Source: Giardia intestinalis (Eukaryota). From it: a stretch of DNA of 64,000 nt. The position numbers and the translations under genes were made by a program. Each line of letters opens with the position of its first letter. Position 1 is the stretch's first letter. Below, one piece after another: positions 11,403-62,492 of the stretch. The notes under the pieces were generated by a model, which ran no database searches, had not been told where the DNA came from, and worked only from the letters and a program-made list of their open reading frames with translations. The stretch is from the NCBI GenBank assembly GCA_000002435.2, contig CM018789.1; one strand, given 5' to 3'.

Positions 11403-13577
11403 ATGCACGCTGCTTCGTCTGGATCCGCAACAATAGCTTTCAGTGTCCCACCGTTCACTCTCAGAGGGCTCTACAAGCAACTGAATGACGTGCTTAATGA
11501 AAGTCCCGCGGGAACAGTCTACTCTCTCAAGGATTATCTGGGCCTCGCCGTAAAGGAGGTCCTGCTCGACGGCCTGGACAAGGGGGATCTGGACACCATC
11601 AGACTAGAGCTGGCCACCCTTCTCGACCTCTCCCATCCGGGGGTCCTCAAGCACCATCAAGTGGTCGAGGATGATGACTTCATCTACGTCGTCACGGACC
11701 GCCACGACAAGACTCTCGAGTGCCTCCTCACTGAACACAAGCGAAGGAAGATCCCCGTCCCTATCGCTGTGATTCTCTCCGTCCTGAGGCAGGTCGCTGC
11801 CGCCCTCGCCTATCTCTACGGCCTCAGTGGGATAGGTACTAGGGGGCTCGTCCACCGCGACCTCAGGCCTGCCAATATATTTATCAGCGCAGATGGTGAG
11901 TACTTCGTCATCGCTGGTCTCGGCCTCTGCAGGAACGCCCTGAGAGGCGGGAGCATCACCGCGATAACAAGGCCGTACATGGCCCCCGAGGTGCTCCTCC
12001 ACAACGAGACCAGCCCTGCCTCCGATGTGTGGAGCCTCGGGGTCATCGTCTACGAGCTTACTATTCTGAGGAGACCGGACTTCCTAGAAGGTAAAGACCC
12101 AAAAGACGTCTTCGTTGACGGGTGGAGGCCGAACCTGAGCGGTGTCACCGATGGCTTCATAAAGAGCATTCTGGAAAGGATATTCGTGCTGGAGCCAGAG
12201 AGGAGGCCAACGGCCAAGGGACTGTGCGAGATGCTCGCCACAGCAGACATCCCAGTTAGTGAGCTGGGGCATCGGTGTGTGGCACTAGAAGACAAATGCA
12301 GCGCCTTGGAGGCTGCTTTGAACAGTGCTAATGCTAATATCGTGCTTCTGAAGGACGAGCTCAAGGTCGAGTCGGATAAGGTCACTGCTCTTGAGGCAGC
12401 CCTCGACGCCAGGTCTGCTGAGATTGCCTCTCTAAAGGGCGCTCTTGAGAACAGGCCAAGTGAGGCCGACGCCCTGGGACAGGAGCCCCGACTCAAGACC
12501 ACCAGGATCGACGCGCTTGAAGATCAGTGCAAGGAGTATTTAGCCATGATTAAGGCACTGGAGGATAAGCTTGCACAATCTAGTAGTGGGATGAACACGA
12601 GTAGCCCCCAGATCAACCTCTCCGCGCTGCCTCAACTGATATACGCTGCACACACGAATGACATGGAGACTGTCCAGATGCTGGCCAACGAGAAAGATTG
12701 TATCGGTCAGCGCGACGAGCGGGGGATGACGGCCCTCATGCATGCAGCCCAGCAGGGGCACGGTGGGCCTGTTGAGCTGCTTGTTAAGAAGGAAAAGGGC
12801 CTCAAAGATAAAAACGGCTGGACCGCGCTCATGCACGCCGCACACGGGAACCATCCTGAGGTAGCTAGGATTCTCATCCCTCATGAGCATGGGAGGAAGA
12901 GCAAGAACGGCCGTACTGCTCTGATGATTGCTGCACAGGAGGGCCATGCGGAGGCTGCTTCTGTTCTGGCTCCGTACGAGGAGGACCTGACCGACAGACA
13001 AGGCAACACGGCCCTGATCCTTGCGGCAGAGGCAGGACACGAAGCTGTGGTGGAGGCTCTCGACCCAACCGATGATAGGGGCGTCACAGCGCTCATGCGG
13101 GCCGCGAAAAGAAACGACACATTAGCAGTAAGCGCACTCATACCCGTCCAGAAGAAGCGATTGGCACCTACTGGGACAGCGCTAATACAAGCAGCAATAT
13201 GCGGCCACGTAGCAGCAGTACGACTGCTGATGCCATATGAGAGTAGGGCACGGGATGGTTGTGGTGCGACCGCCCTCATGAAGGCTGCCTCTGAGAATCA
13301 TGCAGAAGTAGTGCAGCTGTTGATGGAGCGCGAAGGCTGCATGCTGGATCCCCATGGCTTACCCGCTATCGTGCACGCAGCGTATGGCGGCCGCTTAGAG
13401 ATAGTGAAGCTGCTATTTGAAAAGGAGGGGCATCTAATAGACAAGTCTAATGAATCCTTCTTTGATAAGCTTGAGGCCAAGGGCTACTCTGAGATAGCAT
13501 CCTTCCTTAGGGACAGCCGTACACCGGGCGCCGATGACTGCAACGATCACCAAGCTGCTCCACGAGCTCACGAGTAA
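11403..13577 (+). CDS. NEK-like kinase with coiled-coil and ankyrin repeats (left inverted-repeat copy; probably catalytically impaired)
   Basis: The kinase domain keeps HRDLRPANIF and APE (YMAPEV) and has the lysine in LAVKEV, but the DFG motif is replaced by AGLGL. It continues into a coiled coil and then about 9 ankyrin repeats. First ATG at 11403; AGTAAAC overlaps the stop (13573..13579). Confidence 0.8.
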   Translation: MHAASSGSATIAFSVPPFTLRGLYKQLNDVLNESPAGTVYSLKDYLGLAVKEVLLDGLDKGDLDTIRLELATLLDLSHPGVLKHHQVVEDDDFIYVVTDRHDKTLECLLTEHKRRKIPVPIAVILSVLRQVAAALAYLYGLSGIGTRGLVHRDLRPANIFISADGEYFVIAGLGLCRNALRGGSITAITRPYMAPEVLLHNETSPASDVWSLGVIVYELTILRRPDFLEGKDPKDVFVDGWRPNLSGVTDGFIKSILERIFVLEPERRPTAKGLCEMLATADIPVSELGHRCVALEDKCSALEAALNSANANIVLLKDELKVESDKVTALEAALDARSAEIASLKGALENRPSEADALGQEPRLKTTRIDALEDQCKEYLAMIKALEDKLAQSSSGMNTSSPQINLSALPQLIYAAHTNDMETVQMLANEKDCIGQRDERGMTALMHAAQQGHGGPVELLVKKEKGLKDKNGWTALMHAAHGNHPEVARILIPHEHGRKSKNGRTALMIAAQEGHAEAASVLAPYEEDLTDRQGNTALILAAEAGHEAVVEALDPTDDRGVTALMRAAKRNDTLAVSALIPVQKKRLAPTGTALIQAAICGHVAAVRLLMPYESRARDGCGATALMKAASENHAEVVQLLMEREGCMLDPHGLPAIVHAAYGGRLEIVKLLFEKEGHLIDKSNESFFDKLEAKGYSEIASFLRDSRTPGADDCNDHQAAPRAHE

Positions 13578-13579
13578 AC
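13573..13579 (+). promoter_or_regulatory. Putative Giardia-type polyadenylation signal (AGTAAAC) overlapping a stop codon
   Basis: AGTRAAY motifs overlap or closely follow the stops of several + strand genes: 1465..1471, 13573..13579, 14494..14500, 20814..20820, 49693..49699, 53429..53435 and 56628..56634. Confidence 0.5.
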
Positions 13580-13739
13580 CCGTCGTTCCCTTCACGAGAA
13601 GCAGAAGGCCCTGGAGAACAGGCCATACGGACCAGCGCCCCATGCTTCTGGCCGTGCCAAAGTGCCATGAAACAGCGTCTCCAAGTTTTCTATCAATTAT
13701 GTCTTATGAAGAGCCGCGATCGCAATTGGGAGGCAAAGA

Positions 13740-14498
13740 ATGGCACTTATTGAGGCGGCCAAGGAGAACAGGCTGGACTACGTCAGGGCCCACAAGGCCG
13801 CGGACGCAGGCCAGAGGGACGCAGACGGGAAGACGGCGCTCATGTGGGCCGCCGAGGCCGGGCACACCGCCGTCGCCCTGGAGCTGGTCGACGCAGAGGC
13901 GGGCCTGGTCTCGAACGACGGGTCCTTCGCGCTGATCGCGGCGGCAAAGAGGGGGAACCTCGAGCTGATCCAGGCCCTTTTCGAGAAGGAGGGGAGGCTG
14001 CGGGACGCCGGCAAGCTCTCCGCCCTCAACCACGCCTCCAAGGCGAAGCAGTTCGAGGCGGCCAAGGTCCTCCGGCTGAAGACCATCGAGACGATGGACG
14101 CGGCGATGCTGGAGCAGCTCCGGCAGAGGGTCGCGGCCACCTACACCGAGATGGCCAAGAAGTCGCAGCAGGCCGAGGTCAAGAGCCACAACATGGCCAT
14201 CTTCCGCTCGTTCTTCGAGGCGTTCTACTTCCTCTCCTGCTCGGGGATCGACCAGGGGGCGGAGATCTCGGAGGAGCAGCTGAACAAGTCCCTCGAGAAG
14301 TGCCTGGGCGAGATCCGCAAGCTCCTCAACTCGAAGAAGTACACGAAGTGCGTGAAGTGCCGCGCCAACGCCCCCAACCTGGTCTGCATGCCGTGCAAGC
14401 ACTACGTCCTCTGCAAGGACTGCGGGAAGGACGTCGCCAGCAAGGTCTGTCCTGCTTGCAACAAGCCGGTCGAGGAGTTCATGGAGGTCTTCAAGTAA
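13740..14498 (+). CDS. Ankyrin-repeat protein with C-terminal RING-type zinc finger (left inverted-repeat copy)
   Basis: Ankyrin repeats (KTALMWAAEAGHTAVALELV...), a coiled linker, then CVKCRANAPNLVCMPCKHYVLCKDCGKDVASKVCPACNKP (C3HC4-like). GC3-rich codons. AGTAAAC overlaps the stop (14494..14500). The antisense and other-frame ORFs in the track here are GC artefacts. Confidence 0.75.
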   Translation: MALIEAAKENRLDYVRAHKAADAGQRDADGKTALMWAAEAGHTAVALELVDAEAGLVSNDGSFALIAAAKRGNLELIQALFEKEGRLRDAGKLSALNHASKAKQFEAAKVLRLKTIETMDAAMLEQLRQRVAATYTEMAKKSQQAEVKSHNMAIFRSFFEAFYFLSCSGIDQGAEISEEQLNKSLEKCLGEIRKLLNSKKYTKCVKCRANAPNLVCMPCKHYVLCKDCGKDVASKVCPACNKPVEEFMEVFK

Positions 14499-14996
14499 AC
14501 GCCAAGAGGTGCTCCACGTCTGCAGATGTCCACCTAGTCGGGGCTCACCAGTAGGATTGCTTTGGCAGCTGCGCCACGAACCACACAGGACAGAGACGCG
14601 GTGATTGGCGCAGCCCCAGAAGGAGCCAGCGGACGCGACCCGTGACAGTCTGACAGGACCAGATTTGTGAAGACGTCTGTCTCTACAAGCCCCTCCACCC
14701 AGCGGCCGTAGCCGAGACCCACCCTGGCCCTCTTTCCCATCAGTCCACCCAGGCAAGGTTTACTGTAGAACCGATGCTTCCCGCTGTTCAGTGTATTTGT
14801 TTGACTAAAGACACGCGGGTCCTTTTCAGATGCGGCTGCAGGACCATCCCGCGTGGAGCTGGGAGAGCGCAACGGCCTCCTCCGCCGCGTACTGCTCCGG
14901 GGCGTCGGCAGGCTGCTCTCGTAGAGCCAGCCGTGGTGGGCCAGCGCCAGCCGTCCTCGCTGCACGGGCTTATGGAGAGCTGGTAGATGAGCTTCG

Positions 14997-16740
14997 TCAG
15001 GTGCTCGCGGAAGGCGGGGAGGCCCTGCAGCTCGAACACCCCGTATATGCGCGAGTAGTCCCCGCCGCGAAGGGCAGTATGTGCTTGGCGATCTTCAGAA
15101 GCACGACGATGGACGAAAGGCTGTTGACCTTGGACAGCTGGTACCCCGGGAAGCTGCACGTGAGCGTGCCCGCCGTGTTCATGTTGGCGGGGCTGTTGGT
15201 GCTATGTCTCCGCGCAGGAACGCCATCAGGTTGGCCAGGTTGTTCGGGATGTACGCCGTCGGCGGCCTGGAGCCCCGCCCGGGACGCTCTGCGCCGCGGC
15301 CCCTGGCTGGCCGCCGTGCTGGAGGGCTGCAGGATGTGCGAGACGTAGCCGTAGAAGCAGCGCGACGCCGTCAGCAGGCAGAACAGCCGCCTGCCGCTCA
15401 CCAGGCTATGAAGGGGCCTCGCGGGGTCTAGCGCCGGGTCCGGCGGGGCGCCCTGCTTGGCGGGCCTGGCCTGCAGGAGGAGAAGGACGTGGAGGCAGCT
15501 CTTCAGCACAGACTCCCGGATGTGCCGCGTGGACGACGGGGTGTTGCTGGAGAACGCGCCCTTCTCGGCGTCCCTCGTCGTGCCCGCAGTCGCCTTGGCC
15601 GACAGGACCGTCTCCAGCATGTGGGGGACCCCACACAGCGCCAGGCGGAGCAGCGACGAGAGGAACGCCGGCATGTCGACCTCCCGGTTCAGGTGGTAGA
15701 GCTGGTGCCCCAGGACGCAGTCGGCCTCGTTGGAAATGCCGACGAGCATCGCCCGCTGGACGTCCAGGGGGAGCGCGTAGGCGAGCACGTTGACCAGCTC
15801 GTGGCACTTGATGCTGCGGAACCGCTCCTCGTGGTGGTTGAAGGACAGCGCCTTCTCTATGCACCGCTCGAAGTAGGGCAGATTGCCCTTCGCACCCGGC
15901 CTCCCCGAGAACGGGAAGGACGCGGTCAGCCCCCGCTTGACCCTGTTGAGGTACACGCGGTAGTCGCCGGTGGCCACCGCGTTGCCGAGGGTGCGCTCCA
16001 GCTCGGCGTCGTGCCCGCCGTGGAGGTCTGCCAGGGACTGCAGGCCGATCCGCACGTCCGGCCCGGGCGCCGCCTGTTGGGCTGGGGGCGTTGAAGGCCG
16101 TCATGACGCTTGCACACTCTGCCATCTGGTCTGCGACGCCCTTGTCGGCGTAGGGGAGACGTTGCCGGACGAGAAGGGGGCGGAAGCCGCTCGACGGTCT
16201 CGATCGCGCAGGACCCGGCGCTGCCCTGCTCCTCCAGGGCCATCCTGCGGATGCTCCGGCACGTCCGGGCCTGCTTGTGGCCGCCCAGGGGCCCAGGAGG
16301 AGGAGGAGCGCCTGCCTGGATCAGCTTGGAGAGCAGGCGCGCAAGGGCTGGACCAGGGCCCTGACGAAGCCTTCGAAGGTGCGGAGGCAGGGCAAGCAGT
16401 CGACCGAGCCGTCCAGGCGGTCGCAGACGGTGACCCCCCGCAGGTTCAGGGAGGCCAGCACAAGGTGCAGGACCTGGATGCAGTGGGCCAGGGGAGGCGG
16501 GAGCTGCTTGCTTGCGTTCTGCGTCGACTCCGCCCTCAGGTCCGAGAGGGAGGCCGCGCACTCGCCGGGACGCCGAACCGCTTGAGGACCTGCCTGAAAA
16601 GGGAGCCGCCGTTGTGGAGGAAGAGGAGGAGCGCCCGCCTCGCCTCGTCGGCGCCCATCTCGTCCTCGAAGAGCGAGAGGAACGACTCGCTGAGCTCGTA
16701 GATCGCCGGCTCCACGTCCGACCACACGACCGGGAGCGGG
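14997..16740 (-). pseudogene. GC-rich gene of unknown function, split over three reading frames (possible pseudogene or frameshifted gene; left copy)
   Basis: Protein-like segments occur on the minus strand in three frames (16727..16536 WSDVEPAIYELSESFLSLFEDEMGADEA...; 16563..16321 ...ASKQLPPPLAHCIQVLHLVLASLNLRGVTVC...; 16055..14997 MRIGLQSLADLHGG...352 aa). This implies at least 2 frameshifts, and both are also present in the right copy. Confidence 0.35.
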
Positions 16741-18325
16741 GCGGTCGTCCGGTTCTAGTCCAGGCTTCCGTCCCCCATGTTTGCGGTTTCATGGCCCGCG
16801 CGGCCCTCTGCCCCAATCCATAGGGCCATGGGCTTGAGCAGACGAGCGCTGCCCATTCATCCTCTACTATACGTTTCCACGGATGGCACCGTTCGCGGCA
16901 GGGGCACTGAAGCCTCAGGCGTTCCTCTCTGCCAACAACCATGAACTACGGTAAGGTCCTGACTAGGCTGGAAGGCGCTCTGGCGGTGGCACGGGCAACT
17001 GCTAGACCCGCCCGCATCGGCCTCTGGTCATGAAGGCGAGCTGGCCCTTCCTTGGTGTGTCCTCCATACTAGTGGGACTTGCCGCGCTTCCCCCTCACGT
17101 GCAGCCAAAGGCCATGGCCGACGTCCGCACTGGTCATATAGCCGACCTCCGCGACTCTGGTGGCAGCGTGCTTGCTCGCTTATTCCACGAGGCATGGGCA
17201 TGGTAGTTACCGGCCTTGCTGCACAGCTCTTGACGGCGCCTTCCAGCCATTGCATCGGCCAGCTGTGCTACTTACAAGAAGCTCGCGCGCGTTCCCAACG
17301 TTGCAGCAACGCACGCTTGATCCCCGGCGGTGATTACTTTCATTAGTGGTGGTGCCCGCTCCGTCTCTAATCTGGTGTCGAACACACCAAGGATGATAGC
17401 GGCGCCACTCACGTTGCCGACGACTGCTTTATCCTGGCTTCTCAGATTGAAGGAGTGCTCTTGCTGGGCGTGGGCTCCCACGCTCCCCTTCATGGCCTCC
17501 TGGCCCTGTGCAATCTCTTCCTGGAAAAACGATATGCTGCTGTGCGCGATGTCGTGCACGGCATGTCGCCGAAGCAATAGCAGGGCTGCGCAATCATGCA
17601 TCCACTTGGTGGGCTACATGACTTGGCCCGCCATGCTTCTCTGTGCCTTCTTGTCAGTGCTAAGCGGGCACCCTTACGACGGCCAGCGCCTATGCGGCTG
17701 CGTGTCTATTCAGCGTATTTGCTCGCGTCATTATCGATTTACCGTACTTGGTCTCCTCATTGAGCTCTGCAATTGTCAGCTGCCACAGAGCGAGGCAGGT
17801 TCTTACTCTGCCCGAGGGCGATTATTGTGGGAAGCTCCATGCAAAGAACGACTCCACAGCGGCTCAGTTTGTTATATGGACAGCTGGCAACCCGAGTTGT
17901 TCGTGGGGGAGACAGTGCCACAGACACATACCCTCTTCTCTCAATTCTAACAAGCAATCTTACAAGACCAGGAACAGAAGATTGCTGTCCATGAGGGCGG
18001 CTCTAAACTGCTCGGCGCATACAATGCACTCGAGAAGAGGCCTCCTGAAGATGTGCTGGTAGGCGCGGAATCGGACGGTCCGATCGAGACGCCGTCCCTG
18101 GCAGCCGCTGGTTCTCCTAGGGGCGACGAGCCCCATGCCCCCGATGGACTCCTACTTCCAAAGCCCCAGCCGGCAACGCCTGATGCCTCCAGGTGCTCCT
18201 CTCAAACTGACAGATTAAGGAAGTACTATGTTGAGCTAGCAGCCATGCATAGGCAGATTACCGTACTTCAGTCTTCCGTACGCGAATCAGAGACAGAGTG
18301 CGTGCCAGTTCTTAGATCCTTGTAG

Positions 18326-20800
18326 TTTAGTATTCCTAGGGGGTGCCTGGTTGGGGTGGGGGGCTGTGTTGGCTCCGGGAAGTCGAGCTTCCTATTGGCT
18401 ATTCTGGGAGAGGTGGCCCTTTCGACATCAAGTAGTTCGGATTCCGCTCATATACACTCGGTGGGCCGTATTGCATACTGCTCGCAGGTGCCGTCCGTGT
18501 TTACAGGGACCATACAGTTCAATATCCAGTTATTCTTACCCTATGATGAAGAGAAAATGCAGCTTGCAACTCGACTCTCCTGTCTGGATGGGGACCTTTC
18601 TGAACTACCAGGGGGGCTTGCCACACTTGTTGGCAGCCGCGGTGTGACACTGTCTGGAGGACAGAAAGCTCGATTATCAATTGCCAGGGCCATCTACTCC
18701 GACGCGGATATTTACTTGTTTGATGATCCGTTCGCCTCTCTGGACTCTCATGTTTGCAAGTCGTTATGGAGCGAGACCATCAAAGGGTATCTACTTGCAA
18801 GGGGGAAGACCGTTGTGTTGGCGACCAATCAGATGCATTACTTTCGTTCGTGCTTAAAGGTGCTATTTATAGATGCTGGCACGATCAAAGAAGTGACACC
18901 AGAGAGCGTAGATATAGACTGTTCTCCTCTGCCCGTCGCAGAAGTCCTCTCACTGACCTCTATACAGGCTGTAGAGAAACACGACTCTGACTATCAAGTG
19001 CATCGAATGGCAGCAGTGCTTAAGGAGGAGAAATGCACGGAGCTGGGATCTGTTAATTCTAAATATTACAAGCTATGGTTCAAGGCAGGCGGGACCTGGA
19101 GATTCGTCATTTATGTTGTCATGTGGGTCTTCTGTATACTTATGTTGCAACTGGCGTCGCTGCTCATCAACTTCTGGACCGAACAGCGGCTAGGGCTGAG
19201 CACAGGTGGTTGCATAGGTCTGTTCTTGTCGTTCTCCTTTGCATTTATGGTGATCCTCTTCGTTGGGCAGCTCTTCTATATGCTGTTCACACGGAAGGCG
19301 GCAGAGAAGCTGTACTACAGCATGGAAGAGGGGCTTATCAATACATCGATGTCGTTCTATGACGCACACCCCATTGGACGGATCCTTAACCGCCTGATAG
19401 CAGACACAGGTACATGTGATTTGACGGTGAAGAATGGCCTAGCAGCGACATGTGAGAACTCCATCTTTGTGCTGGGTTCATTACTGGCCACTTTGCTGAT
19501 GAGCTGGCCATCTACGTTTGTGCTAGTTCCCTTGCTGGGACTGTTCCTTTGGATGTTCATGGGATTTCGTGCTGTGTCGCCCCTCTTGCGACGCACCACC
19601 TCCCTCTTGAATAGCCATGTGTGTAACTTTATTCTAGACACATACTACAACCTGGCATCTCTTAGAGCGTATAGGTATGAAGCCCAGGCGGCAAGCTACT
19701 ACGCCAGAGCCGTCCTAGCTATGGAGGCGGCATTTTGGATGGATGTTTCCCTCTACAGATGGCTACACTTTACAACTACCCTTCTATCTATCTGTGTGTC
19801 CGCAGTAGTTACTGTGTCCACTATCATAACGTCTTCTTTTGCTAACGGAGAGATATTTTCAGGTACCGTACTCATGAATGGCTTTGATGTTGTCATGATG
19901 TTAATAGATATGTGCTTCGGGATTGTTGCAATGGATCTTTCTATGGCCAGCGTGGAGAGGGTAGCAGAGTACGCTACTCTTGAACCAGAGAGTACAAGCG
20001 CTCCGCATAGCCCAAGTAGCTTGCCGGCAGACTCTACTCTCGGGCTTATTGTGCAAGATCTTTCGCTACGCTATCAACAGCATTTGCCAGTTGTGCTTCA
20101 TGGGATCTCATTCACAGCGGCCAAGGGAGAGCGCGTTGCAATCATAGGAAAGACAGGGTCTGGCAAGTCATCCCTTGTCAATGCGATTCTCAGACTTGTC
20201 GAGCCAGAGGCGGGCTCTGAGATTCTCTTGAATGGCCTGAACCTGCTGAAGATGGGCTTACATCAGGCACGGTCTAAGGTGACGCTGATACCACAGGATC
20301 CTTTTATTTTCTCCGGGACACTGCGAGCCTATCTCTCCGGGGATAGACGGTTCTCAGATGAGGAGCTGTGGCGTGTCTTGGAGAAGACGCACTTGCGTGA
20401 ATACTTCGCAGCTCAGTCAAAGCAACTTGACTACCACCTTTTTGATAACGGCAGCAACCTTTCGCTCGGACAGCGACAGCTTCTGTGCGTAGCCCACGCG
20501 CTGCTCAGAGACACAGAAGTCATCCTATTGGACGAGGTAACAGCACACGTAGATAGTGCCGCAGAGGCGGCTATTCAGGATGCCCTGGGGGCATATAAGG
20601 AGCAAAAGATCATTATTACGATAGCCCATAGACTCCGCACTGTTTGCAACCAGGATAGGGTTATTGTTATGGCCGGTGGTCAAATAGTCGAGCAGGGTCC
20701 TCCACGCGTGCTGTTTCACAAGCCTGACAGTATCTTTGCCAATATGGTAAGGTGTTCGGTAGATTCGGAAGACCTCGTCGATTTTCTTACGTCGATGTGA
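18326..20800 (+). CDS. ABCC/MRP-type ABC transporter, 5'-truncated (NBD1-TMD2-NBD2 only); possible pseudogene
   Basis: Walker A (GGCVGSGKSS) lies at the very start, followed by LSGGQKARLSIARAIY...DADIYLFDDPFASLD (signature and Walker B), about 6 TM helices, a second Walker A (GKTGSGKSS) and a second signature (LSLGQRQLL...ILLDEVTAHVD). Homology to MRP NBD1 (ITV...PVLRSL*FSIPRG) continues upstream across an in-frame TAG at 18323 to about 18260. No TMD1 is encoded upstream, where the inverted-repeat arm begins at 18209. Confidence 0.8.
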   Translation, partial: FSIPRGCLVGVGGCVGSGKSSFLLAILGEVALSTSSSSDSAHIHSVGRIAYCSQVPSVFTGTIQFNIQLFLPYDEEKMQLATRLSCLDGDLSELPGGLATLVGSRGVTLSGGQKARLSIARAIYSDADIYLFDDPFASLDSHVCKSLWSETIKGYLLARGKTVVLATNQMHYFRSCLKVLFIDAGTIKEVTPESVDIDCSPLPVAEVLSLTSIQAVEKHDSDYQVHRMAAVLKEEKCTELGSVNSKYYKLWFKAGGTWRFVIYVVMWVFCILMLQLASLLINFWTEQRLGLSTGGCIGLFLSFSFAFMVILFVGQLFYMLFTRKAAEKLYYSMEEGLINTSMSFYDAHPIGRILNRLIADTGTCDLTVKNGLAATCENSIFVLGSLLATLLMSWPSTFVLVPLLGLFLWMFMGFRAVSPLLRRTTSLLNSHVCNFILDTYYNLASLRAYRYEAQAASYYARAVLAMEAAFWMDVSLYRWLHFTTTLLSICVSAVVTVSTIITSSFANGEIFSGTVLMNGFDVVMMLIDMCFGIVAMDLSMASVERVAEYATLEPESTSAPHSPSSLPADSTLGLIVQDLSLRYQQHLPVVLHGISFTAAKGERVAIIGKTGSGKSSLVNAILRLVEPEAGSEILLNGLNLLKMGLHQARSKVTLIPQDPFIFSGTLRAYLSGDRRFSDEELWRVLEKTHLREYFAAQSKQLDYHLFDNGSNLSLGQRQLLCVAHALLRDTEVILLDEVTAHVDSAAEAAIQDALGAYKEQKIIITIAHRLRTVCNQDRVIVMAGGQIVEQGPPRVLFHKPDSIFANMVRCSVDSEDLVDFLTSM

Positions 20801-20933
20801 ATTAGCATATGCTAGTAAATCCACAGAGCGCTTGCGTAGACAGGTAGCAGGGCGATCGACACCCCGCAGAAACGAGTCTTTTGCGGTCAGTGACACCTAA
20901 ATTGTTGGATTGAGGCTCTGTCATAATAAAAGC

Positions 20934-21761
20934 ATGTGTGGATTGGAAAACAACATGGAGGCCAAGCAGAGGGCGAAGCGTCTCAAGGGATACATGATAC
21001 GGTATGACAAGCTTGCAAGGCAGCGCACACGACTTATGGACCACACCGAGCGTCTCGCAGACAGCCGCGTATCCGTGGACGAAGAGACACAGACTCGGGC
21101 GTCCTCGGCCGAGACATCCTTGCATGTACTATACCTGGATGGGCATGGAAACATCTGCCCCACCGTCCCGGTGCAGCCAGGGCTGCCAAGGTGGGTGTCT
21201 CTGCGCGTGAACTCCTGTGCCTCTCTTCTTCTATCGGTTCACAACATCGTAGTCAGGTCGGAGCTTGCCGCACGCTGTGAGACTAACGACGCCGCCGATC
21301 GCATTCTTACCAGAATCCAGACAAACCACGGACCTTCCGTCCAGATCCCCAACGAGTGCATCGTGCTCTGTCCCCCGCCGCCCCTCTTTCTTGAGTCCTT
21401 GCACTATCTCCTGGTGAAACTGCAGCTCTGCACGGCGCCGGTCCCAGGTGCTGACTCCCGAGTGGTCGGCGAGGTTGCGGCCCGCCCATTTACATTCAGC
21501 AGGAATATGACACATAAGGATCGTCAGTTTACACAAATATCCGACACCTACCCAATCGTCCTCGATTCGGAGGTTGTTGGAAGCCTGTGCTTGCGACTGG
21601 AAATGCTTTCGCACGACCATACAATCGAGACCACGCGTCACTTCACGGTAGACTGCTCCAGTCTTAATAGGCCCAATCAGAAAGAAAAACGAAGACTGAT
21701 AGGCGCACAGACACAGACAACTGGATATCTCACTTCGACCTTAGAGGAAAGGCGGCTGTAA
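20934..21761 (+). CDS. Hypothetical protein (weak call)
   Basis: Longest ORF in this interval; first ATG at 20934 (alternative at 20955); no recognisable domains; a competing antisense ORF lies at 21231..21641. Confidence 0.25.
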   Translation: MCGLENNMEAKQRAKRLKGYMIRYDKLARQRTRLMDHTERLADSRVSVDEETQTRASSAETSLHVLYLDGHGNICPTVPVQPGLPRWVSLRVNSCASLLLSVHNIVVRSELAARCETNDAADRILTRIQTNHGPSVQIPNECIVLCPPPPLFLESLHYLLVKLQLCTAPVPGADSRVVGEVAARPFTFSRNMTHKDRQFTQISDTYPIVLDSEVVGSLCLRLEMLSHDHTIETTRHFTVDCSSLNRPNQKEKRRLIGAQTQTTGYLTSTLEERRL

Positions 21762-21788
21762 AGGCTATGACGGCAGAGCTATAACAGC

Positions 21789-22328
21789 TCAGGTGGAGCC
21801 GAACTCCGCTGTGAACTTCGCTATGCGCGACTTGTCAGCTTGGGAGACGCTCGACTTCACGGCTGCCTTGGCACGCAACAGGCTACTCACAGTGACATAG
21901 GGAACCGTCAGCTTATCGTTGGGAATATCCATAAAGTCTTTCTTCTCAGCGCCGGGCATGTCTGATGCTGAAACCTCGTACATGCCTGTGATCTTATTGA
22001 GGCGGAAGTAGGACACCTTCTGCAACACGCGCACGGGGTCCATGAGAGCTTCCTTGCACAATATGCTGAGGTCAGAGCCAGAGTAGTTCTCTGTTTGCTG
22101 TCCGAGCTCAGTGATATCCTCATCTGCTAGCACATTGGGCGTAGTGCCGATGCAATTCTTTATGATATTTGCTCTGGCAGCGGCGTCTGGGAGGACGATC
22201 TCGATGCGCTTCTCGAAGCGGCGGCGGATCTCCACCCAGGCCCCCTTGAACGGCAACTGTGCGGCCAATCCACGAGCAGCTTTCTGTGCAACAATCACAA
22301 GTGGGGCCTGTACACAATGCAATGAGGG
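21789..22328 (-). pseudogene. VPS4-like AAA ATPase, C-terminal fragment only
   Basis: ...VEIRRRFEKRIEIVLPDAAARANIIKNCIGTTPNVLADEDITELGQQTENYSGSDLSILCKEALMDPVRVLQKV...AKFTAEFGST aligns with the VPS4 C-terminal region from RRFEKRIYIPLP to the end. There is an in-frame stop at 22331..22329 and no Walker A/B or MIT region upstream. Confidence 0.7.
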
Positions 22329-22779
22329 TTACTTCCTCAAGGACGGCGGCTGCTATCAGACAGATAGACAGCCTGGTAAGCAGGTCTGTAGTAGTGCACA
22401 GGGAGGAACATGTCAGACGTGTGCCAACGGACTGCAGGTACAAAGTGGGGCCTGTGGGGAGTGCCACTCTACTTGTGCTACGTGCTCGACTGCAGATGAC
22501 CCTAATAAGTGTAAGACCTGTGCCACTGGGTATTACAAGACAAGCGATAATGATGGCCCGTGCATGAAGTGCTCTGAGGGGCTCGCTGGGTGCAGACAGT
22601 GCACAGCGTCATCCACCGATGCGTTCATGTGCCTCGAGATGGGCGATGGCACTGGCGACAACACCGGGGGAAGCACCAACAAGAGCAGCCTCAGCACTGG
22701 CGCCATCGCGGGGATCTCCGTCGCTGTGATTGTCGTTGTGGGGGGCCTTGTGGGCTTTCTCTGCAGGAGAGAGACGTAG
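22285..22779 (+). pseudogene. VSP / high-cysteine membrane protein-like C-terminal fragment
   Basis: CxxC-rich sequence with a GGCY motif (CTQCNEGYFLKDGGCY, CQTCANG, CATCSTADDPNKCKTCATGYYKT) and the conserved VSP transmembrane helix STGAIAGISVAVIVVVGGLVGFLC. The tail is CRRET* instead of canonical CRGKA. There is no signal peptide or N-terminal region; the 5' part of the track ORF (22111..22284) is the antisense of the VPS4 fragment. Confidence 0.65.
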
Positions 22780-23063
22780 ACTTAGATAATAAATATGTCA
22801 CATCAAGGCATCCTGTGCTCAGTGATTGTCCGACAACTGATTCCCTAAACACTGAATGGTATCTAACTGAAGGTCTCAAGAAGAGGTAAACTCACAACGG
22901 ATAACCGATAGCATCAGGAGGGGAGAACTAGGAATGCCTCTATCAAAACTGGCAGGACGAGTCCGCTGAGACAACATGGGCCGTGCCACACATTCCAAAC
23001 TATTCTGACATGTAAAAATGTGGTTTTTAATTAGTTTGTCTAATTTAAGTACTCAAGGAAGCC

Positions 23064-25088
23064 ATGAAGCACTCTAAAAGTGAGGAAGAGTTCTTATCGT
23101 GGAAGGAATTCACATCGGAGACATGTACCAAAATATATAAACTAGCTGCTGAGCACTTTTCGCGTCGGTATCTCTCCAATATGACCAGGACTGGGGATCC
23201 TCGTTTTTGGGGGAATGAAATGGAATCTATTATTTTACAAAAGCACCATAAAAACACATATGCGCTTAGCACTAATCACTGTCACGATCAACTTGCAAGA
23301 CTTTCAGATAGATTGACGCTCATGCCTGAATTTGCACGGTTTATCCTTGAGTTCATACCTGTTGCTCCATTTGATGAAGAGCTAAGAGGTCTTCGTCTTA
23401 GATGTGATGAATATACTAGACATGTCACTGACTTGCTCGCTACAGCGGAGCTAGAAGAACTCACGATTCTTTTAGGCACATGCTATCCAGTCTTTGGGAA
23501 AGACTTTTTAATGGACAGGGACGCCTTTAGCTCACAGACTCCCGACCAGCTTGAGCTATTGAAGACCAAAATGCTCGAGTACGTCACTGATACTGGTAGG
23601 TATCGTACGCTAGTCTCCAATATGCTTTTGCGGAAGGGCAGTATCTCGTGGGCTACCGTGTCTTCTAGTTGTGGAGACACGTACTATCTCCCAGGGCCTC
23701 TGTTTGGTATGGGCTTGTGTGGGATGCATGTCACGATCCAGAGTGCAACCATGGAAGACTCGCGCCTCCTTTACGATGCACTTCAACCCTTGTGTCCGGT
23801 TCTCTTGGCTCTTAGCGCATCTACTAGCGTATTGGCTGGGGTTGTTCTAGATAAGGATACGCGGACATCCTATTTGTCTGATGCCATGGACGATCGGCCA
23901 CTACATGAGCACTCTATAGGACTACCAAGACGCTATAGTGTGGCAGGAGTGTATATTGCAAATCATCCAGCAAATATCCCTCTTTTAAACGACGTATCAC
24001 CTGTTTCATCAGGGCTCAGTAGTAGATCTAGTGTCATTCAGTCTAGTGGTAATGATTCCAAAATACATGCCTACGTTCAATCTGTTATTTCACATTTTCC
24101 ATTAGTAGTTTTACGAGATTCTCTTGTCTTCCACGATGAAAGTTTTGACTCAGACTGTTGGGATCAAATACATTCGCTTTTTTGGCCGACTTGTCGTTGG
24201 AAAGTTCCCCCAATAGACTCTCTCAAAGGAAGTACGGGCTGGCGCACTGAAGTTCGTTGCATGGAGATGCAGTTCTCCATAGCAGAGAACCTTGCATACT
24301 CGGTCTTTGTGTTCCTGCTTTCAAGTGCCATTAGAGACATGGGTCTGCTATTCTACATTCCTCAGACTTTCATCTTACAGGATATGTCTTCTGCAGAAAA
24401 GCGTGACGCTGTTAATAATGAGTTGTTCTGGGTAAGAGACGTCTTCCTCGACCTACACTTCGAAAGTGTATCTGGTGCTGATCTTCAACTCGGCTCCTCA
24501 GGTATCTTTTCAGAGCAATGCAGACAAATGGCTGTAGAGATATTTTCTTCTCAAATCAGATTGGCACTGGAAAATAGACGAGCGTTTGCAACTCTAAGCT
24601 CAGCAGACGATGCTGGTACACATAGGCACACGTGGTGTCCTAAAAGCGTGTGCACGTGTTTCGAGAATAGCATTTCTGATTTTCATCTGATAAAGGTAAG
24701 TCTTAAAGAGTTTATGTGCGGGTCCGCTCGATATCCTGGGCTTCTTCCTGTACTTGCTATGTACACAGACGCATATTTTGATACTATCGCCGATCCCACA
24801 TCCCTGGATGACGTTGAATATATTCACTCTGTCATTTCATATCTTGCAGACCGTGCTGCTGGTGTTATTCCAACCTGTGCTGCAGCAGTGCGAAATCTTA
24901 TACAGAATATGCACACTCACAGAGACAATAGCTTCGCTGAAGTGTGCTCTAGTATGCTTTCAGAACCAGAGGTACAAATAGTTACCGAGTACATGCTTGG
25001 TGCTAGGCGACTATCGCTAGATGGTCTGCGAGAATACTATAGAGCCCACTCTGGTACTGTTAGTATTAGCGTTAGCACCCCCGAATGA
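23064..25088 (+). CDS. Glutamate-cysteine ligase catalytic subunit (gamma-glutamylcysteine synthetase)-like
   Basis: Matches eukaryotic GCLC along its length: N-terminal LSWKEF...[11 protein letters not shown] resembles LSWEET...[75 protein letters not shown] resembles [92 protein letters not shown] resembles [28 protein letters not shown]. Confidence 0.8.
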   Translation: [674 protein letters not shown]

Positions 25089-56602: not shown

Positions 56603-59229
56603 TCAACGTAGACTGCAAAGTTGTCCAAGTAAATCCCCCTCGCGAGTCGCTGCACTGGACTGGCTACCTCTCGCTCGCTCCCATCAAAGTCCAGAATCTG
56701 AAACTCAAATGTCAGCCAACTCCGATGGAAGAAGAACTCTTATGCTTCGTCTCCCCAGGAAGCCGCTGCTCCTCACGTTACCTCTAAGGTTTCTCCCATC
56801 CTCTGGCTAGCTTGGAGCAACCACCACCTGGCACCGGTGGGCACCTGCTGTCTCGAGCCTTGCGTCGGTCACAGCAGTCTGGCCTCGAGAGCAATTGACT
56901 CTGGCCATGTACTCCGGAGTAGCTTTGTAGTGTTGGTGCTCTACGACAAAGATCACACGCCACGGCCCCGGGTGCCTACCCCGTTCCTCGGGGTGCCTCT
57001 TCGTCTCTTCGTGGAGGGCACCATCTGTTCCATTATCAAGGGTGCGATTCCCGTACGCCTCTATCTTGGAATCATAGTACGCGTTCGTGGATGTCGATGG
57101 AGTACTCCCATGCGCTGGTATCAGGGGAGAGGCCCATCCCTCTGCTCATGGATCGCAGAGGTGCTCCGTCACCCAGCACGAGACCGCGTCGACGCTCACC
57201 CTGTGCAGTGCGTCTGGCTCAGTGATGTGTGAGCTGGTCCATCTGCACAGCACACTTGGGGTGATGCTTCGGTCTGTCGAGGCGTCGTCCAAAGCACCAG
57301 GAGCAATCAGGACCGGTTCGCTGTCAGGTCGTCTCTCTACAATCGGCACTCGTCTACTCGAGGGTGTCAGGCACTGCCAGCTGCTGCGGCAGATGCTCGG
57401 CAGGTGGCCCAGGCCGCCACTCTCCGGTGCGGGCAGGATCAGTCCGCTTCTACCAACCAGACACCCCAACTCCTATTTCTTGCCGAGGGATTCATATGGG
57501 TCACGTGTGGGTCCGTCTCGACAAGCGGGGCGAGTGATTGGTGCCATTGCCAGCCTCGGACGCTCATCTGCATTCGCTATCACCTCGAGGGAGGGGGCAT
57601 AAATCTTCCCCGTCAGAACTGGACGACATCCGACTTTCGGATTCTGGGTCTCAGCTAGTGAACGAGCGAGAGACTGCCAGCCTGGGGCGGCGGTGGCTCG
57701 CATGGAGGACCTGTTCAGGCAACAGCTGACAAACTAGTCTCAGTGCAATAAGGTAACTGGCTAGTTTGAGAGGAGCACCTGGAGGCATCAGGCGTTGCCG
57801 GCTGGGGCTTTGGAAGTAGGAGTCCATCGGGGGCATGGGGCTCGTCGCCCCTAGGAGAACCAGCGGCTGCCAGGGACGGCGTCTCGATCGGACCGTCCGA
57901 TTCCGCACCTACCAGCACATCTTCAGGAGGCCTCTTCTCGAGTGCATTGTATGCGCCGAGCAGTTTAGAGCCGCCCTCATGGACAGCAATCTTCTGTTCC
58001 TGGTCTTGTAAGATTGCTTGTTAGAATTGAGAGAAGAGGGTATGTGTCTGTGGCACTGTCTCCCCCACGAACAACTCGGGTTGCCAGCTGTCCATATAAC
58101 AAACTGAGCCGCTGTGGAGTCGTTCTTTGCATGGAGCTTCCCACAATAATCGCCCTCGGGCAGAGTAAGAACCTGCCTCGCTCTGTGGCAGCTGACAATT
58201 GCAGAGCTCAATGAGGAGACCAAGTACGGTAAATCGATAATGACGCGAGCAAATACGCTGAATAGACACGCAGCCGCATAGGCGCTGGCCGTCGTAAGGG
58301 TGCCCGCTTAGCACTGACAAGAAGGCACAGAGAAGCATGGCGGGCCAAGTCATGTAGCCCACCAAGTGGATGCATGATCGCGCAAGGGTCATCCTTCCCA
58401 CGTATATGAGCTCTTGACGCCTACGTGGGTGCATTCGACTCCTGCACAGCTCCTGATAATTATAGGCCTTTATCACCCGTAGCCCTGCTATTACTTCGGT
58501 GACATGCCGTGCACGGACATCGCGCGCAGCAGCATATCGTTTTTCCAGGAAGGGATTGCACAGGGCCAGGAGGCCATGAAGGGGAGCGTGGGAGCCCACG
58601 CCCAGCAAGAGCACTCCTTCAATCTGAGAAGCCAGGATAAAGCAGTCGTCGGCAACGTGAGTGGCGCCGCTATCATCCTTGGTGTGTTCGACACCAGATT
58701 AGAGACGGAGCGGGCACCACCACTAATGAAAGTAATCACCGCCGGGGATCAAGCGTGCGTTGCTGCAACGTTGGGAACGCGCGCGAGCTTCTTGTAAGTA
58801 GCACAGCTGGCCGATGCAATGGCTGGAAGGCGCCGTCAAGAGCTGTGCAGCAAGGCCGGTAACTACCATGCCCATGCCTCGTGGAATAAGCGAGCAAGCA
58901 CGCTGCCACCAGAGTCGCGGAGGTCGGCTATATGACCAGTGCGGACGTCGGCCATGGCCTTTGGCTGCACGTGAGGGGGAAGCGCGGCAAGTCCCACTAG
59001 TATGGAGGACACACCAAGGAAGGGCCAGCTCGCCTTCATGACCAGAGGCCGATGCGGGCGGGTCTAGCAGTTGCCCGTGCCACCGCCAGAGCGCCTTCCA
59101 GCCTAGTCAGGACCTTACCGTAGTTCATGGTTGTTGGCAGAGAGGAACGCCTGAGGCTTCAGTGCCCCTGCCGCGAACGGTGCCATCCGTGGAAACGTAT
59201 AGTAGAGGATGAATGGGCAGCGCTCGTCT

Positions 59230-60960: not shown

Positions 60961-61571
60961 TCGTCGTGCTTCTGAAGATCGCCAAGCACATACTGCCCTT
61001 CGCGGCGGGGACTACTCGCGCATATACGGGGTGTTCGAGCTGCAGGGCCTCCCCGCCTTCCGCGAGCACCTGACGAAGCTCATCTACCAGCTCTCCATAA
61101 GCCCGTGCAGCGAGGACGGCTGGCGCTGGCCCACCACGGCTGGCTCTACGAGAGCAGCCTGCCGACGCCCCGGAGCAGTACGCGGCGGAGGAGGCCGTTG
61201 CGCTCTCCCAGCTCCACGCGGGATGGTCCTGCAGCCGCATCTGAAAAGGACCCGCGTGTCTTTAGTCAAACAAATACACTGAACAGCGGGAAGCATCGGT
61301 TCTACAGTAAACCTTGCCTGGGTGGACTGATGGGAAAGAGGGCCAGGGTGGGTCTCGGCTACGGCCGCTGGGTGGAGGGGCTTGTAGAGACAGACGTCTT
61401 CACAAATCTGGTCCTGTCAGACTGTCACGGGTCGCGTCCGCTGGCTCCTTCTGGGGCTGCGCCAATCACCGCGTCTCTGTCCTGTGTGGTTCGTGGCGCA
61501 GCTGCCAAAGCAATCCTACTGGTGAGCCCCGACTAGGTGGACATCTGCAGACGTGGAGCACCTCTTGGCGT

Positions 61572-62330: not shown

Positions 62331-62492
62331 TCTTTGCCTCCCAATTGCGATCGCGGCTCTTCATAAGACATAATTGATAGAAAACTTGGAGACGCTGTTT
62401 CATGGCACTTTGGCACGGCCAGAAGCATGGGGCGCTGGTCCGTATGGCCTGTTCTCCAGGGCCTTCTGCTTCTCGTGAAGGGAACGACGGGT

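What the first reader, a model, noticed from the sequence alone, without database searches (positions are those of the whole stretch)
21789..22779. Head-to-head junction of two 5'-truncated gene fragments: a VPS4 C-terminus and a VSP-like C-terminus
The minus-strand 21789..22328 encodes only the last 180 or so residues of a VPS4-type AAA ATPase, starting from the RRFEKRI motif. The plus-strand 22285..22779 encodes only the cysteine-rich C-terminal part of a VSP/high-cysteine membrane protein, with its conserved transmembrane helix but no N-terminus or signal peptide. The two truncation points overlap within about 45 bp, which marks a rearrangement breakpoint that destroyed both genes. The VSP tail is degenerate: tgc agg aga gag acg tag (CRRET*) against canonical tgc agg ggc aag gcg (CRGKA), and the WWFxC stretch is missing. 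VSP gene fragments are known substrates or relics of recombination in Giardia. This places one in the chromosome core next to housekeeping genes.
Basis: partly seen in the sequence, partly recalled or inferred. Interest (0 to 1): 0.6.

Follow-up and report, generated by a model that had tools for sequence, protein, structure and literature searches.

The report
Truncated Vps4a copy abutting VSP remnant
In the Giardia WB genome, the edge of a 4.6-kb duplicated block, which carries the last third of the Vps4a gene, is joined directly to the remaining 3' end of a surface-antigen (VSP) gene; it is an ordinary genomic scar that the reference annotation lists as two small protein-coding genes.

Summary
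The window is Giardia intestinalis WB chromosome 1.

**The two pieces**
- Minus strand 21789..22229 is 100% identical to residues 309-454 of intact Vps4a (454 aa).
- Vps4a itself survives on the 4.02-Mb chromosome, next to a paralogue of the hypothetical gene that flanks the fragment here.
- The fragment is therefore the end of a 4.6-kb duplicated block (ABC transporter 3' part, hypothetical gene, Vps4a 3' part; 17587..22229). It is not a destroyed VPS4 gene.
- Plus strand 22230..22779 is the last 182 codons of a VSP.
- Assemblage E isolate P15 has an intact 625-aa VSP at the syntenic site upstream of the glutamate-cysteine ligase gene.

**The junction**
- The two homologies abut bluntly at 22229|22230. 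There is no 45-bp overlap.
- The same junction occurs in sub-assemblages AI and AII.

**Later changes**
- The VSP remnant lost 15 nt (WWFxC) and the CRGKA tail.
- It is frameshifted in AII.
- It carries gene-conversion patches (10.5% AI/AII divergence against 0.6% in the flanks).

**Annotation**
- GL50803_00137691 (209 aa, "High cysteine membrane protein") is a chimeric ORF. Its start codon and predicted signal peptide are antisense Vps4a codons.
- It is barely transcribed and has no unique peptides.

Verdict: ordinary, low interest.

The parts
17587..22229 (.). Duplicated block: ABC-transporter 3' part, hypothetical gene, and the 3' 441 nt of Vps4a. It is a copy of the ABC / GL50803_00137699 / Vps4a locus on the 4.02-Mb chromosome.
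   Evidence: It is 97.9% identical to DH contig L015 over 4647 nt, and the alignment ends exactly at 22229. It is 98.3-99.6% identical to Logan contigs L004-L009. The left edge is fuzzy, about 17.6-18.1 kb.
18356..20800 (+). Longest ORF (814 aa) of the chromosome-1 ABC-transporter copy. The copy is split into several ORFs here.
   Evidence: Pfam finds ABC_tran and ABC_membrane. The intact 1403-aa form in L004 aligns to 16844..20797 at 78% identity.
20934..21761 (+). Hypothetical protein GL50803_00137692 (275 aa), paralogue of GL50803_00137699.
   Evidence: Exact look-up gives KAE8301234.1. The paralogue KAE8305546.1 is in the same 90% cluster.
21789..22229 (-). Vps4a-derived fragment: codons 309-454 plus the stop codon. 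It holds the end of the large AAA subdomain (RRRFEKRI), the lid, the beta domain and the C-terminal helix. It has no MIT domain and no Walker A/B motifs.
   Evidence: tblastn of Vps4a (P0277) matches residues 309-454 to 22229..21792 at 100% identity. Pfam finds AAA_lid_3 and Vps4_C only. Alignment A3.
21789..22043 (-). Annotated 84-aa ORF "Vps4 C terminal oligomerization domain-containing protein" (KAE8301235.1/XP_037901535.1). It starts at an internal Met of the fragment.
   Evidence: Exact look-up.
22229..22230 (.). Blunt junction between Vps4a-derived and VSP-derived DNA.
   Evidence: Three-way comparison of the window, Vps4a (L015) and a VSP (L016). The identical junction is present in L003 and L012 (AII).
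22230..22779 (+). VSP-derived fragment: the last 182 codons plus the stop codon. It is the positional orthologue of P15 "VSP S8".
   Evidence: Pfam VSP, E 7.9e-40. Alignment A2 shows homology from STQAPLNGNC onward. P15 has an intact 625-aa VSP at the syntenic site. The 3' spacer is 77% identical to that of P15.
22150..22779 (+). Annotated chimeric ORF GL50803_00137691 "High cysteine membrane protein", 209 aa (XP_001706040.1). Codons 1-27 are antisense Vps4a and codons 28-209 are VSP.
   Evidence: Exact look-up. Table S1 of bioRxiv 10.1101/2022.03.07.483299.
22150..22191 (+). Predicted signal peptide MQFFMIFALAAASG, encoded antisense to Vps4a codons 322-335 (PDAAARANIIKNCI).
   Evidence: The prediction is in Table S1 of 10.1101/2022.03.07.483299. 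Coordinates are from the sequence.
22702..22764 (+). VSP-type transmembrane helix AIAGISVAVIVVVGGLVGFLC. AII alleles have one extra nucleotide here relative to WB, which shifts the frame.
   Evidence: Alignments A1 and A2. The TMD is listed in Table S1.
22762..22779 (+). Degenerate cytoplasmic tail C-RRET*. A 15-nt deletion (TGGTGGTTYATCTGC) between TCTGC direct repeats removed WWFxC, and CRGKA is mutated.
   Evidence: DNA alignment with DH VSP L016 and P15 VSP S8.
22780..22794 (+). Degenerate VSP-type extended polyadenylation motif ACTTAGATAATAAAT (canonical ACTTAGGTAGTAAAC).
   Evidence: A motif hit with p 1e-7 is listed in Table S6 of 10.1101/2022.03.07.483299.
23064..25088 (+). Glutamate-cysteine ligase gene (KAE8301237.1), the unique downstream anchor used for synteny.
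   Evidence: Pfam GCS. Exact look-up. Synteny in L001-L003 and L010-L012.

Best explanation
The feature is a genomic scar. It is the non-homologous end of a partial segmental duplication (or ectopic conversion tract) joined to a resident VSP gene.

**Origin (inferred from the points listed as shown)**
- The event happened in the assemblage A lineage, after its split from assemblage E and before the AI/AII split.
- About 4.6 kb was copied from the ABC transporter / hypothetical / Vps4a locus on the 4.02-Mb chromosome and came to lie on chromosome 1.
- One end of the copy lies within ABC-transporter paralogue homology.
- The other end stops at Vps4a codon 309 and is joined bluntly to roughly codon 434 of a VSP that lay upstream of the glutamate-cysteine ligase gene.
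- This removed the VSP promoter, signal peptide and about 430 codons.
- An equivalent route is a deletion within an originally complete second copy.

**Present state**
- Neither piece can make its original protein. The Vps4a piece lacks the MIT domain and the ATPase core. The VSP piece lacks its leader and most of its ectodomain.

**Later history**
- The Vps4a/hypothetical/ABC copy has been partly homogenised with its intact parent by gene conversion. This, together with its youth, explains why it still reads as a perfect ORF.
- The VSP remnant has received conversion patches from other VSP genes.
- The remnant lost WWFxC through a 15-nt deletion between TCTGC repeats.
- Its CRGKA tail and poly(A) motif mutated.
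- It acquired a frameshift in AII.

**Annotation**
- The reference lists a chimeric 209-aa "High cysteine membrane protein", whose start codon and predicted signal peptide are antisense Vps4a, and an 84-aa "Vps4 C-terminal domain" protein. Most likely neither is a functional gene.

**Shown:** the sequence relationships, the junction, synteny, and the divergence patterns.
**Inferred:** the order and mechanism of the events, and the lack of function.
For: **Identity of the window.** It is Giardia intestinalis WB chromosome 1.

**The Vps4a piece**
- Vps4a residues 309-454 match 22229..21792 at 100% identity, and no other part of Vps4a is in the window.
- In DH the intact 454-aa VPS4 lies directly after the paralogous hypothetical gene and ABC transporter (L015).
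- In WB, Vps4a is KAE8305545.1 and the hypothetical gene GL50803_00137699 is KAE8305546.1, consecutive accessions on the 4.02-Mb chromosome.
- DNA homology to L015 stops exactly at 22229.

**The VSP piece**
- P15 has an intact 625-aa VSP with a CWWFICRGRA tail at the syntenic site.
- The P15 VSP-to-ligase spacer aligns to 22780-23066 at 77% identity.

**Reality and age of the junction**
- The same junction is present in four independent assemblies: WB, DH contig AHGT01000093, and two ENA contigs.

**Concerted evolution of the block**
- The two copies of the block differ by 0.4% within AI and by 1.1% between the two AII-type assemblies, but copies from AI and AII differ by 2.0-2.1%.
- Some variable sites are shared by both copies within a lineage, and others are shared by the same copy across lineages.

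**Gene conversion in the VSP body**
- AI and AII differ at 54 of 516 sites in the VSP body against 5 of 788 in the flanks (Fisher p 1.6e-17).
- Synonymous divergence dS is 0.27.
- Each allele matches different VSP genes in the divergent patch.

**Decay and expression**
- The tail deletion, the degenerate poly(A) motif and the AII frameshift are shown.
- Sense transcript level is 1-4 TPM and only non-unique peptides were detected (10.1101/2022.03.07.483299, Tables S9 and S13).

**Background**
- 6.9% of the WB genome is duplicated and 208 pseudo-VSPs are annotated (PMC7000408).
Against: - The chimeric ORF is open, in frame, starts with ATG, has a predicted signal peptide and a transmembrane helix, and was classed as a complete Cys-rich membrane protein in 10.1101/2022.03.07.483299. 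A product in WB cannot be excluded.
- The Vps4a fragment carries no disabling mutation within its 146 codons, so decay is not directly visible there.
- I could not read the WB 4.02-Mb chromosome itself. The parent locus was seen in DH and in collapsed short-read contigs.
- What lies upstream of the intact VSP in P15 is unknown, because the contig ends 326 nt upstream. Insertion and deletion routes therefore cannot be told apart.
Confidence: 0.86

Rival explanations
1. One reading: a reciprocal rearrangement broke a single-copy VPS4 gene and a VSP gene, and destroyed both.
For: Both pieces are 5'-truncated and meet head to head. Two database searches with the fragment failed to return a near-identical full-length protein.
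Against: - Intact Vps4a with an identical 146-aa C-terminus exists in WB and DH, in the same gene order as the flank of the fragment.
- The fragment is the edge of a 4.6-kb block that is 98-99.6% identical to that locus.
- No reciprocal product (Vps4a 5' part or VSP 5' part) is present in the window.
Confidence: 0.03
2. The chimeric ORF GL50803_00137691 is a newly born functional gene. It would be a short VSP-derived membrane protein whose signal peptide arose from the antisense strand of the Vps4a lid region.
For: - It is an open 209-codon frame with an ATG.
- It has a predicted signal peptide (MQFFMIFALAAASG), seven CXXC motifs, a transmembrane helix and a short basic tail (Table S1).
- It retains a recognisable VSP-type 3' motif.
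- Non-unique peptides were detected.
Against: - Sense RNA is only 1-4 TPM.
- No unique peptide was found.
- The 40 nt upstream of the ATG are Vps4a coding sequence and are not AT-rich.
- AII alleles are frameshifted inside the transmembrane helix and end differently.
- The CRGKA tail and WWFxC are lost.
Confidence: 0.07
3. The VSP remnant is kept as a silent sequence reservoir that exchanges segments with expressed VSP genes and so contributes to antigenic diversity.
For: - The remnant has clearly exchanged sequence with other VSPs since the AI/AII split.
- A third allele, P0043, carries a GNGK insertion typical of other VSPs.
- Pseudo-VSPs are abundant in the WB genome (PMC7000408).
Against: - Only acceptor behaviour is shown here. 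Donation to functional VSPs was not tested.
- Conversion is expected between any similar sequences without selection for it.
- There is no evidence that the locus is maintained, since it shows a frameshift and tail decay.
Confidence: 0.1
4. Assembly artefact: a chimeric join of repeats in the WB assembly.
For: The region is repeat-rich. It includes a duplicated block, the conserved VSP tail, and an inverted repeat of at least 6 kb nearby. Short-read contigs break on both sides of the junction.
Against: - The identical junction is present in DH (AHGT01000093), in two ENA metagenome contigs and in WB. XP_001706040.1 carries an accession adjacent to that of the glutamate-cysteine ligase entry, and from memory I take this series to date from the original WB annotation, which I did not check.
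- The short-read breaks are explained by the Vps4a/Vps4b shared core and by the conserved VSP transmembrane repeat.
Confidence: 0.01

Closest known systems
Giardia pseudo-VSPs (pVSP) and pseudogenised HCMP/CRMP genes, as catalogued by Xu et al. 2020 (PMC7000408) and bioRxiv 10.1101/2022.03.07.483299
   Same: It is a 5'-truncated VSP 3' end with a VSP-type transmembrane helix, CXXC motifs and a VSP-type 3' motif, and it has lost the native signal peptide and the CRGKA tail. Such remnants number more than 200 in WB.
   Different: It stands alone next to single-copy genes rather than in a pVSP array or at a chromosome end. Its truncation point is fused to an unrelated gene fragment, whose antisense strand supplies an ATG and a predicted signal peptide. 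Because of this, published pipelines class it as a complete CRMP rather than a pseudogene.
Giardia Vps4a (KAE8305545.1/XP_001705076.1; called glvps4a, GL50803_101906, in PMC12611102)
   Same: The 146 C-terminal residues (309-454) are identical. The downstream neighbours (hypothetical gene, ABC transporter) are the same.
   Different: It lacks residues 1-308 (MIT domain, Walker A/B, pore loops). It has no start codon of its own except internal Mets, and no promoter. It is not a fourth VPS4 paralogue but a partial duplicate.
Truncated genes at the edges of segmental duplications, kept similar to the parent by gene conversion (a general eukaryotic phenomenon)
   Same: A multi-gene block is duplicated at 98-99.6% identity. 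One edge cuts a gene. Paralogues within a lineage are more alike than orthologous copies between lineages.
   Different: Nothing unusual, apart from the small scale and the fusion partner being an antigen-family gene.

Membership tests
VPS4 / AAA+ ATPase (functional member) | N-terminal MIT domain | tested here: not met
   Pfam finds only AAA_lid_3 and Vps4_C. tblastn of full Vps4a matches residues 309-454 only.
VPS4 / AAA+ ATPase (functional member) | AAA ATPase core with Walker A and Walker B motifs | tested here: not met
   There is no PF00004 hit. Upstream frames are antisense VSP sequence. Alignment A3 starts at I309.
VPS4 / AAA+ ATPase (functional member) | AAA lid and Vps4 C-terminal oligomerisation helix | tested here: met
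   PF17862 E 8.5e-10 and PF09336 E 2.2e-11. The fragment is 100% identical to Vps4a.
Variant-specific surface protein (VSP) | Native N-terminal signal peptide and full CXXC-rich ectodomain | tested here: not met
   VSP homology starts at 22230/22231, equivalent to about residue 434 of the 625-aa P15 VSP S8. No VSP 5' part is in the window.
Variant-specific surface protein (VSP) | Conserved C-terminal transmembrane helix | tested here: met
   AIAGISVAVIVVVGGLVGFLC aligns with canonical VSPs in WB. AII alleles are frameshifted within it.
Variant-specific surface protein (VSP) | Invariant CRGKA cytoplasmic tail preceded by WWF(L/I) | tested here: not met
   The tail reads C-RRET*. There is a 15-nt deletion plus substitutions.
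Variant-specific surface protein (VSP) | Extended poly(A) motif ACTYAGRTAGTRAAY just after the stop codon | tested here: inconclusive
   ACTTAGATAATAAAT differs from the canonical ACTTAGGTAGTAAAC of L016 at three positions, and AGTAAA has become AATAAA. It is still scored as a motif hit in Table S6.
Cys-rich membrane protein (CRMP/HCMP) as defined in 10.1101/2022.03.07.483299 | ORF with a predicted signal peptide, CXXC motifs, one C-terminal TMD and a non-CRGKA tail | tested here: met
   The paper's Table S1 lists SP = Y (MQFFMIFALAAASG), one TMD and tail RRET, and Table S3 lists the gene as CRMP. The criteria are met formally, but the signal peptide is antisense Vps4a sequence.
Cys-rich membrane protein (CRMP/HCMP) as defined in 10.1101/2022.03.07.483299 | Evidence of expression as a protein | tested here: inconclusive
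   Only non-unique peptides were detected (Table S13). Sense TPM is 1-4 (Table S9).
Segmental duplication with truncated edge gene | Two or more loci sharing a multi-gene block at high identity, with homology ending inside a gene | tested here: met
   Window 17587-22229 against L015 is 97.9% identical, and against L006 is 99.6% identical. Homology ends at Vps4a codon 309.

The most novel reading that the evidence does not exclude
GL50803_00137691 would be a case of gene birth by fusion. A decapitated VSP would have regained a start codon and a working signal peptide from the antisense strand of a duplicated Vps4a lid domain, and in AI isolates it would make a short surface or secretory-pathway Cys-rich membrane protein.
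Probability: 0.06. Interest if true: 0.5.

Novelty: already known. Interest (0 to 1): 0.15.

Why it matters
The practical value is for annotation.
- Two small "protein-coding genes" of the Giardia WB reference are best read as pseudogene fragments. These are XP_037901535.1, the 84-aa Vps4 C-terminal domain protein, and GL50803_00137691, the 209-aa High cysteine membrane protein.
- The predicted signal peptide that placed GL50803_00137691 among complete Cys-rich membrane proteins is antisense Vps4a sequence.
- ESCRT surveys should not count the fragment as a fourth VPS4.

The locus is also a clean, datable example of three processes already known to shape this genome:
- partial segmental duplication;
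- concerted evolution between copies on different chromosomes;
- gene conversion among VSP sequences since the AI/AII split.

It does not open a new question.

Tried and rejected
1. **Searching for the intact VPS4 parent by sequence.**
   - The word-indexed search returned only the fragment cluster and relatives at 48% identity or less.
   - The exhaustive representative search gave best full-length hits of 52-53% (P0048 and P0049, from unidentified compact genomes).
   - For a while this suggested that no close parent existed.
   - The idea was rejected once synteny through the paralogous hypothetical gene led to the intact Vps4a.
   - Vps4a was presumably hidden under a cluster representative.

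2. **A 40-kb inversion between WB and AII.**
   - I suspected this because alignments of L003-L009 and L015 break at 17587 and resume at 57754-58812 on the other strand.
   - It was rejected. The window holds an inverted repeat (12070-18208 and 64000-57763). Arm A has a 94-nt deletion at 17587, which splits the alignments.

3. **Logan contigs all ending at window-equivalent 22202.**
   - I first read this as the duplication boundary.
   - It is instead explained by the Vps4a/Vps4b shared AAA core, which begins at 22173 (22173 + 29 = 22202, which fits if the contigs were built with k = 31, an assumption from memory).

4. **Microhomology at the junction.**
   - There is none at the join itself.
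   - A 7-nt CTCGAAG is shared 11-15 nt upstream in Vps4a and in a related VSP. Because that VSP is not the true ancestor, I give this no weight.

5. **Literature search by accession numbers** found nothing.

Insertion and deletion routes therefore could not be separated.
Full report
**Where we are.** Exact protein look-ups place the window on the 1,485,438-bp chromosome of Giardia intestinalis WB clone C6. The reference annotates four genes across the finding:
- hypothetical protein GL50803_00137692 (20934..21761, +);
- an 84-aa "Vps4 C terminal oligomerization domain-containing protein" (KAE8301235.1, 21789..22043, -);
- a 209-aa "High cysteine membrane protein" (XP_001706040.1, listed as GL50803_00137691 in Table S1 of 10.1101/2022.03.07.483299; 22150..22779, +);
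- glutamate-cysteine ligase (23064..25088, +).

**Checking the observation.**
- Pfam finds only AAA_lid_3 and Vps4_C on the minus-strand ORF, and the VSP family (E 7.9e-40, C-terminal third of the profile) on the plus-strand ORF.
- Upstream of RRRFEKRI, none of the three minus-strand frames shows AAA sequence.
Its coordinates are not.
- An exhaustive HMMER search aligns VPS4 proteins only from residue 33 of the 179-residue translation of 21789-22328, that is from EIRRRFEKRI.
- tblastn with intact Vps4a matches residues 309-454 to 22229..21792 at 100% identity.
- Alignment with related VSPs shows VSP homology already at STQAPLNGNCAANPRAAFC, which is 22231 onward.
- A three-way DNA comparison fixes the join:
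  - window: GCGGCGGAT|CTCCACCCAGG
  - Vps4a: GCGGCGGAT|GGCGCTGTC
  - a related VSP: GCAAGAC|CTCCACTCAGG
- The pieces abut bluntly at 22229|22230.

**Where the VPS4 piece comes from.**
- The hypothetical gene next to the fragment has a paralogue more than 90% identical, GL50803_00137699, on the 4.02-Mb chromosome.
- In the AII isolate DH, the contig carrying that paralogue reads ABC transporter, hypothetical gene, then an intact 454-aa VPS4 on the opposite strand. This is the same order and orientation as around the fragment (L015).
- The WB equivalent is "Vacuolar protein sorting 4a", KAE8305545.1. Its accession is adjacent to that of GL50803_00137699, KAE8305546.1.
- Its last 146 residues are identical to the fragment.
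- DNA identity between the window and L015 runs from 17587 to exactly 22229, at 97.9% over 4647 nt.
- The fragment is therefore the cut edge of a 4.6-kb duplicated block. VPS4 was not lost: WB keeps Vps4a, Vps4b and Vps4c (PMC12611102).
- The ABC-transporter copy in the block is itself split into several ORFs here.

**Where the VSP piece comes from.**
- In assemblage E isolate P15, the gene directly upstream of the glutamate-cysteine ligase orthologue, in the same orientation, is an intact 625-aa VSP ("VSP S8") that ends CWWFICRGRA.
- The spacer between that VSP and the ligase gene aligns to window 22780-23066 at 77% identity.
- The VSP is therefore the old resident of this site, and in assemblage A it lost about 430 N-terminal codons at the junction.
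- The window contains no VSP 5' part and no Vps4a 5' part, so no reciprocal product is nearby.

**Age and reality of the junction.** The same junction, base for base, is present in DH (AHGT01000093), in two ENA metagenome contigs and in WB. It is therefore not an assembly artefact, and it predates the AI/AII split. Its absence from the P15 site puts it after the A/E split.

**What happened afterwards.**
- *The duplicated block.* The two copies of the block differ by 0.4% within AI-type assemblies and by 1.1% between the two AII-type assemblies. Any AI copy differs from any AII copy by 2.0-2.1%. The site table shows positions where both copies of a lineage share a derived base, and also positions where the chromosome-1 copies of both lineages agree against the parents. 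This mosaic points to an old duplication followed by partial gene conversion. It explains why the Vps4a fragment is still a flawless 146-codon frame. In WB it differs from the parent-type sequence at one synonymous site. In DH it differs at five sites, including one Asp-to-Asn change.
- *The VSP remnant between AI and AII.* It differs at 54 of 516 sites, against 5 of 788 in the sequence on either side (Fisher p 1.6e-17). Synonymous divergence is 0.27. That is far too high for neutral decay since the AI/AII split. In the most divergent patch, the WB allele matches one group of VSPs (P0213) and the AII allele matches another (P0214, P0218). A third allele carries a GNGK insertion typical of the latter group. 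These are gene-conversion patches from other VSP genes.
- *The VSP tail.* A 15-nt deletion between TCTGC repeats removed WWFxC. CRGKA became RRET. The poly(A) motif ACTTAGGTAGTAAAC became ACTTAGATAATAAAT. From just past the AII frameshift site to the ligase gene (22746-23063), the tail and 3' flank are identical in AI and AII (0 of 318 sites), so this damage is old.
- *The AII frameshift.* AII alleles have one extra nucleotide inside the transmembrane helix. This shifts the frame and adds 37 unrelated residues.

**The annotated chimeric ORF.**
- The VSP frame happens to stay open through 80 nt of antisense Vps4a, back to an ATG at 22150.
- The first 14 codons, MQFFMIFALAAASG, are antisense to Vps4a codons 322-335. 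Signal-peptide programs accept them.
- A published census therefore lists GL50803_00137691 as a complete Cys-rich membrane protein with a signal peptide, a TMD and the tail RRET (10.1101/2022.03.07.483299, Tables S1 and S3).
- The same study reports sense transcript levels of 1-4 TPM and only peptides shared with other proteins (Tables S9 and S13).
- The 40 nt before the ATG are Vps4a coding sequence and are not AT-rich; from general knowledge, Giardia promoters are short AT-rich elements.
- Together with the AII frameshift, this makes a functional product unlikely, though it is not excluded for WB.

**Mechanism of origin.** The most likely origin is a one-sided homologous event. Recombination or repair synthesis would have started within ABC-transporter paralogue homology, copied from the other chromosome through the hypothetical gene into Vps4a, and ended by non-homologous joining inside the VSP. 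A deletion within a once-complete second copy would give the same product. The two routes cannot be separated, because the P15 contig ends 326 nt upstream of its VSP.

**Comparison with what is known.** The WB genome paper reports that 6.9% of the genome is duplicated, with multi-gene duplications up to 20 kb, and it annotates 208 pseudo-VSPs (PMC7000408). This locus is one more instance of both. Both ORFs are already in the reference annotation. What I did not find described is that they are two halves of one junction, and that the signal peptide of GL50803_00137691 is antisense Vps4a. A search by accession numbers found no paper.

**Verdict.**
- The feature is real and precisely mapped, and it is ordinary.
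- Interest is low. The main use is to flag two likely pseudogenes that are annotated as proteins.

Noticed in passing
window 12070-18208 and 57763-64000: A large inverted repeat. Arm A (12070..18208, +) matches arm B (64000..57763, -) at 99.2-99.7% identity, with a 94-nt segment present only in arm B (58385-58477, deleted at 17587 in arm A). The repeat runs off the end of the window, so it may be longer. It encloses about 39.5 kb of unique genes, including the finding. The arms carry part of an ankyrin-repeat protein kinase gene and the 5' part of the ABC-transporter copy. Such arms could mediate inversion of the spacer.
   Followed up: partly
proteins P0277 (Vps4a) and P0275 (Vps4b), alignment A3; window 22173-22229: WB Vps4a (454 aa) and Vps4b (483 aa) are nearly identical in protein sequence across the central AAA core, and fully identical from LFQGKREPW to DAAAR. 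Their N- and C-terminal regions are only distantly alike (66% identity overall). This looks like a gene-conversion tract between paralogues. Six short-read contigs all end at window-equivalent 22202, which is 29 nt past the start of the shared core; that fits DNA-level identity there.
   Followed up: partly
window 16600-20800: The chromosome-1 ABC-transporter (MRP-like) copy is split into several ORFs (for example 17330-17950 and 18356-20800). Some isolates carry an intact 1403-aa form (L004, L005). The copy is therefore probably a pseudogene too. Its 5' part is only 79-85% identical to the other copy, while its 3' part is 98-99.6% identical.
   Followed up: partly
L013 (SRR31929897) and L014 (SRR14944320): The best full-length matches listed for the fragment in the representative library (52-53% identity) come from two unidentified, gene-dense genomes that appear intron-poor. 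One contig encodes BBS1, an Arf-family GTPase, a folate carrier, Ssl1 and E2F/DP-like proteins. They may be undescribed diplomonad or fornicate relatives of Giardia.
   Followed up: no
window 23064-25088: WB carries a glutamate-cysteine ligase gene (674 aa) that evolves fast for a housekeeping enzyme. It is 82% identical to the P15 protein and 62-67% identical to three forms from short-read assemblies.
   Followed up: no
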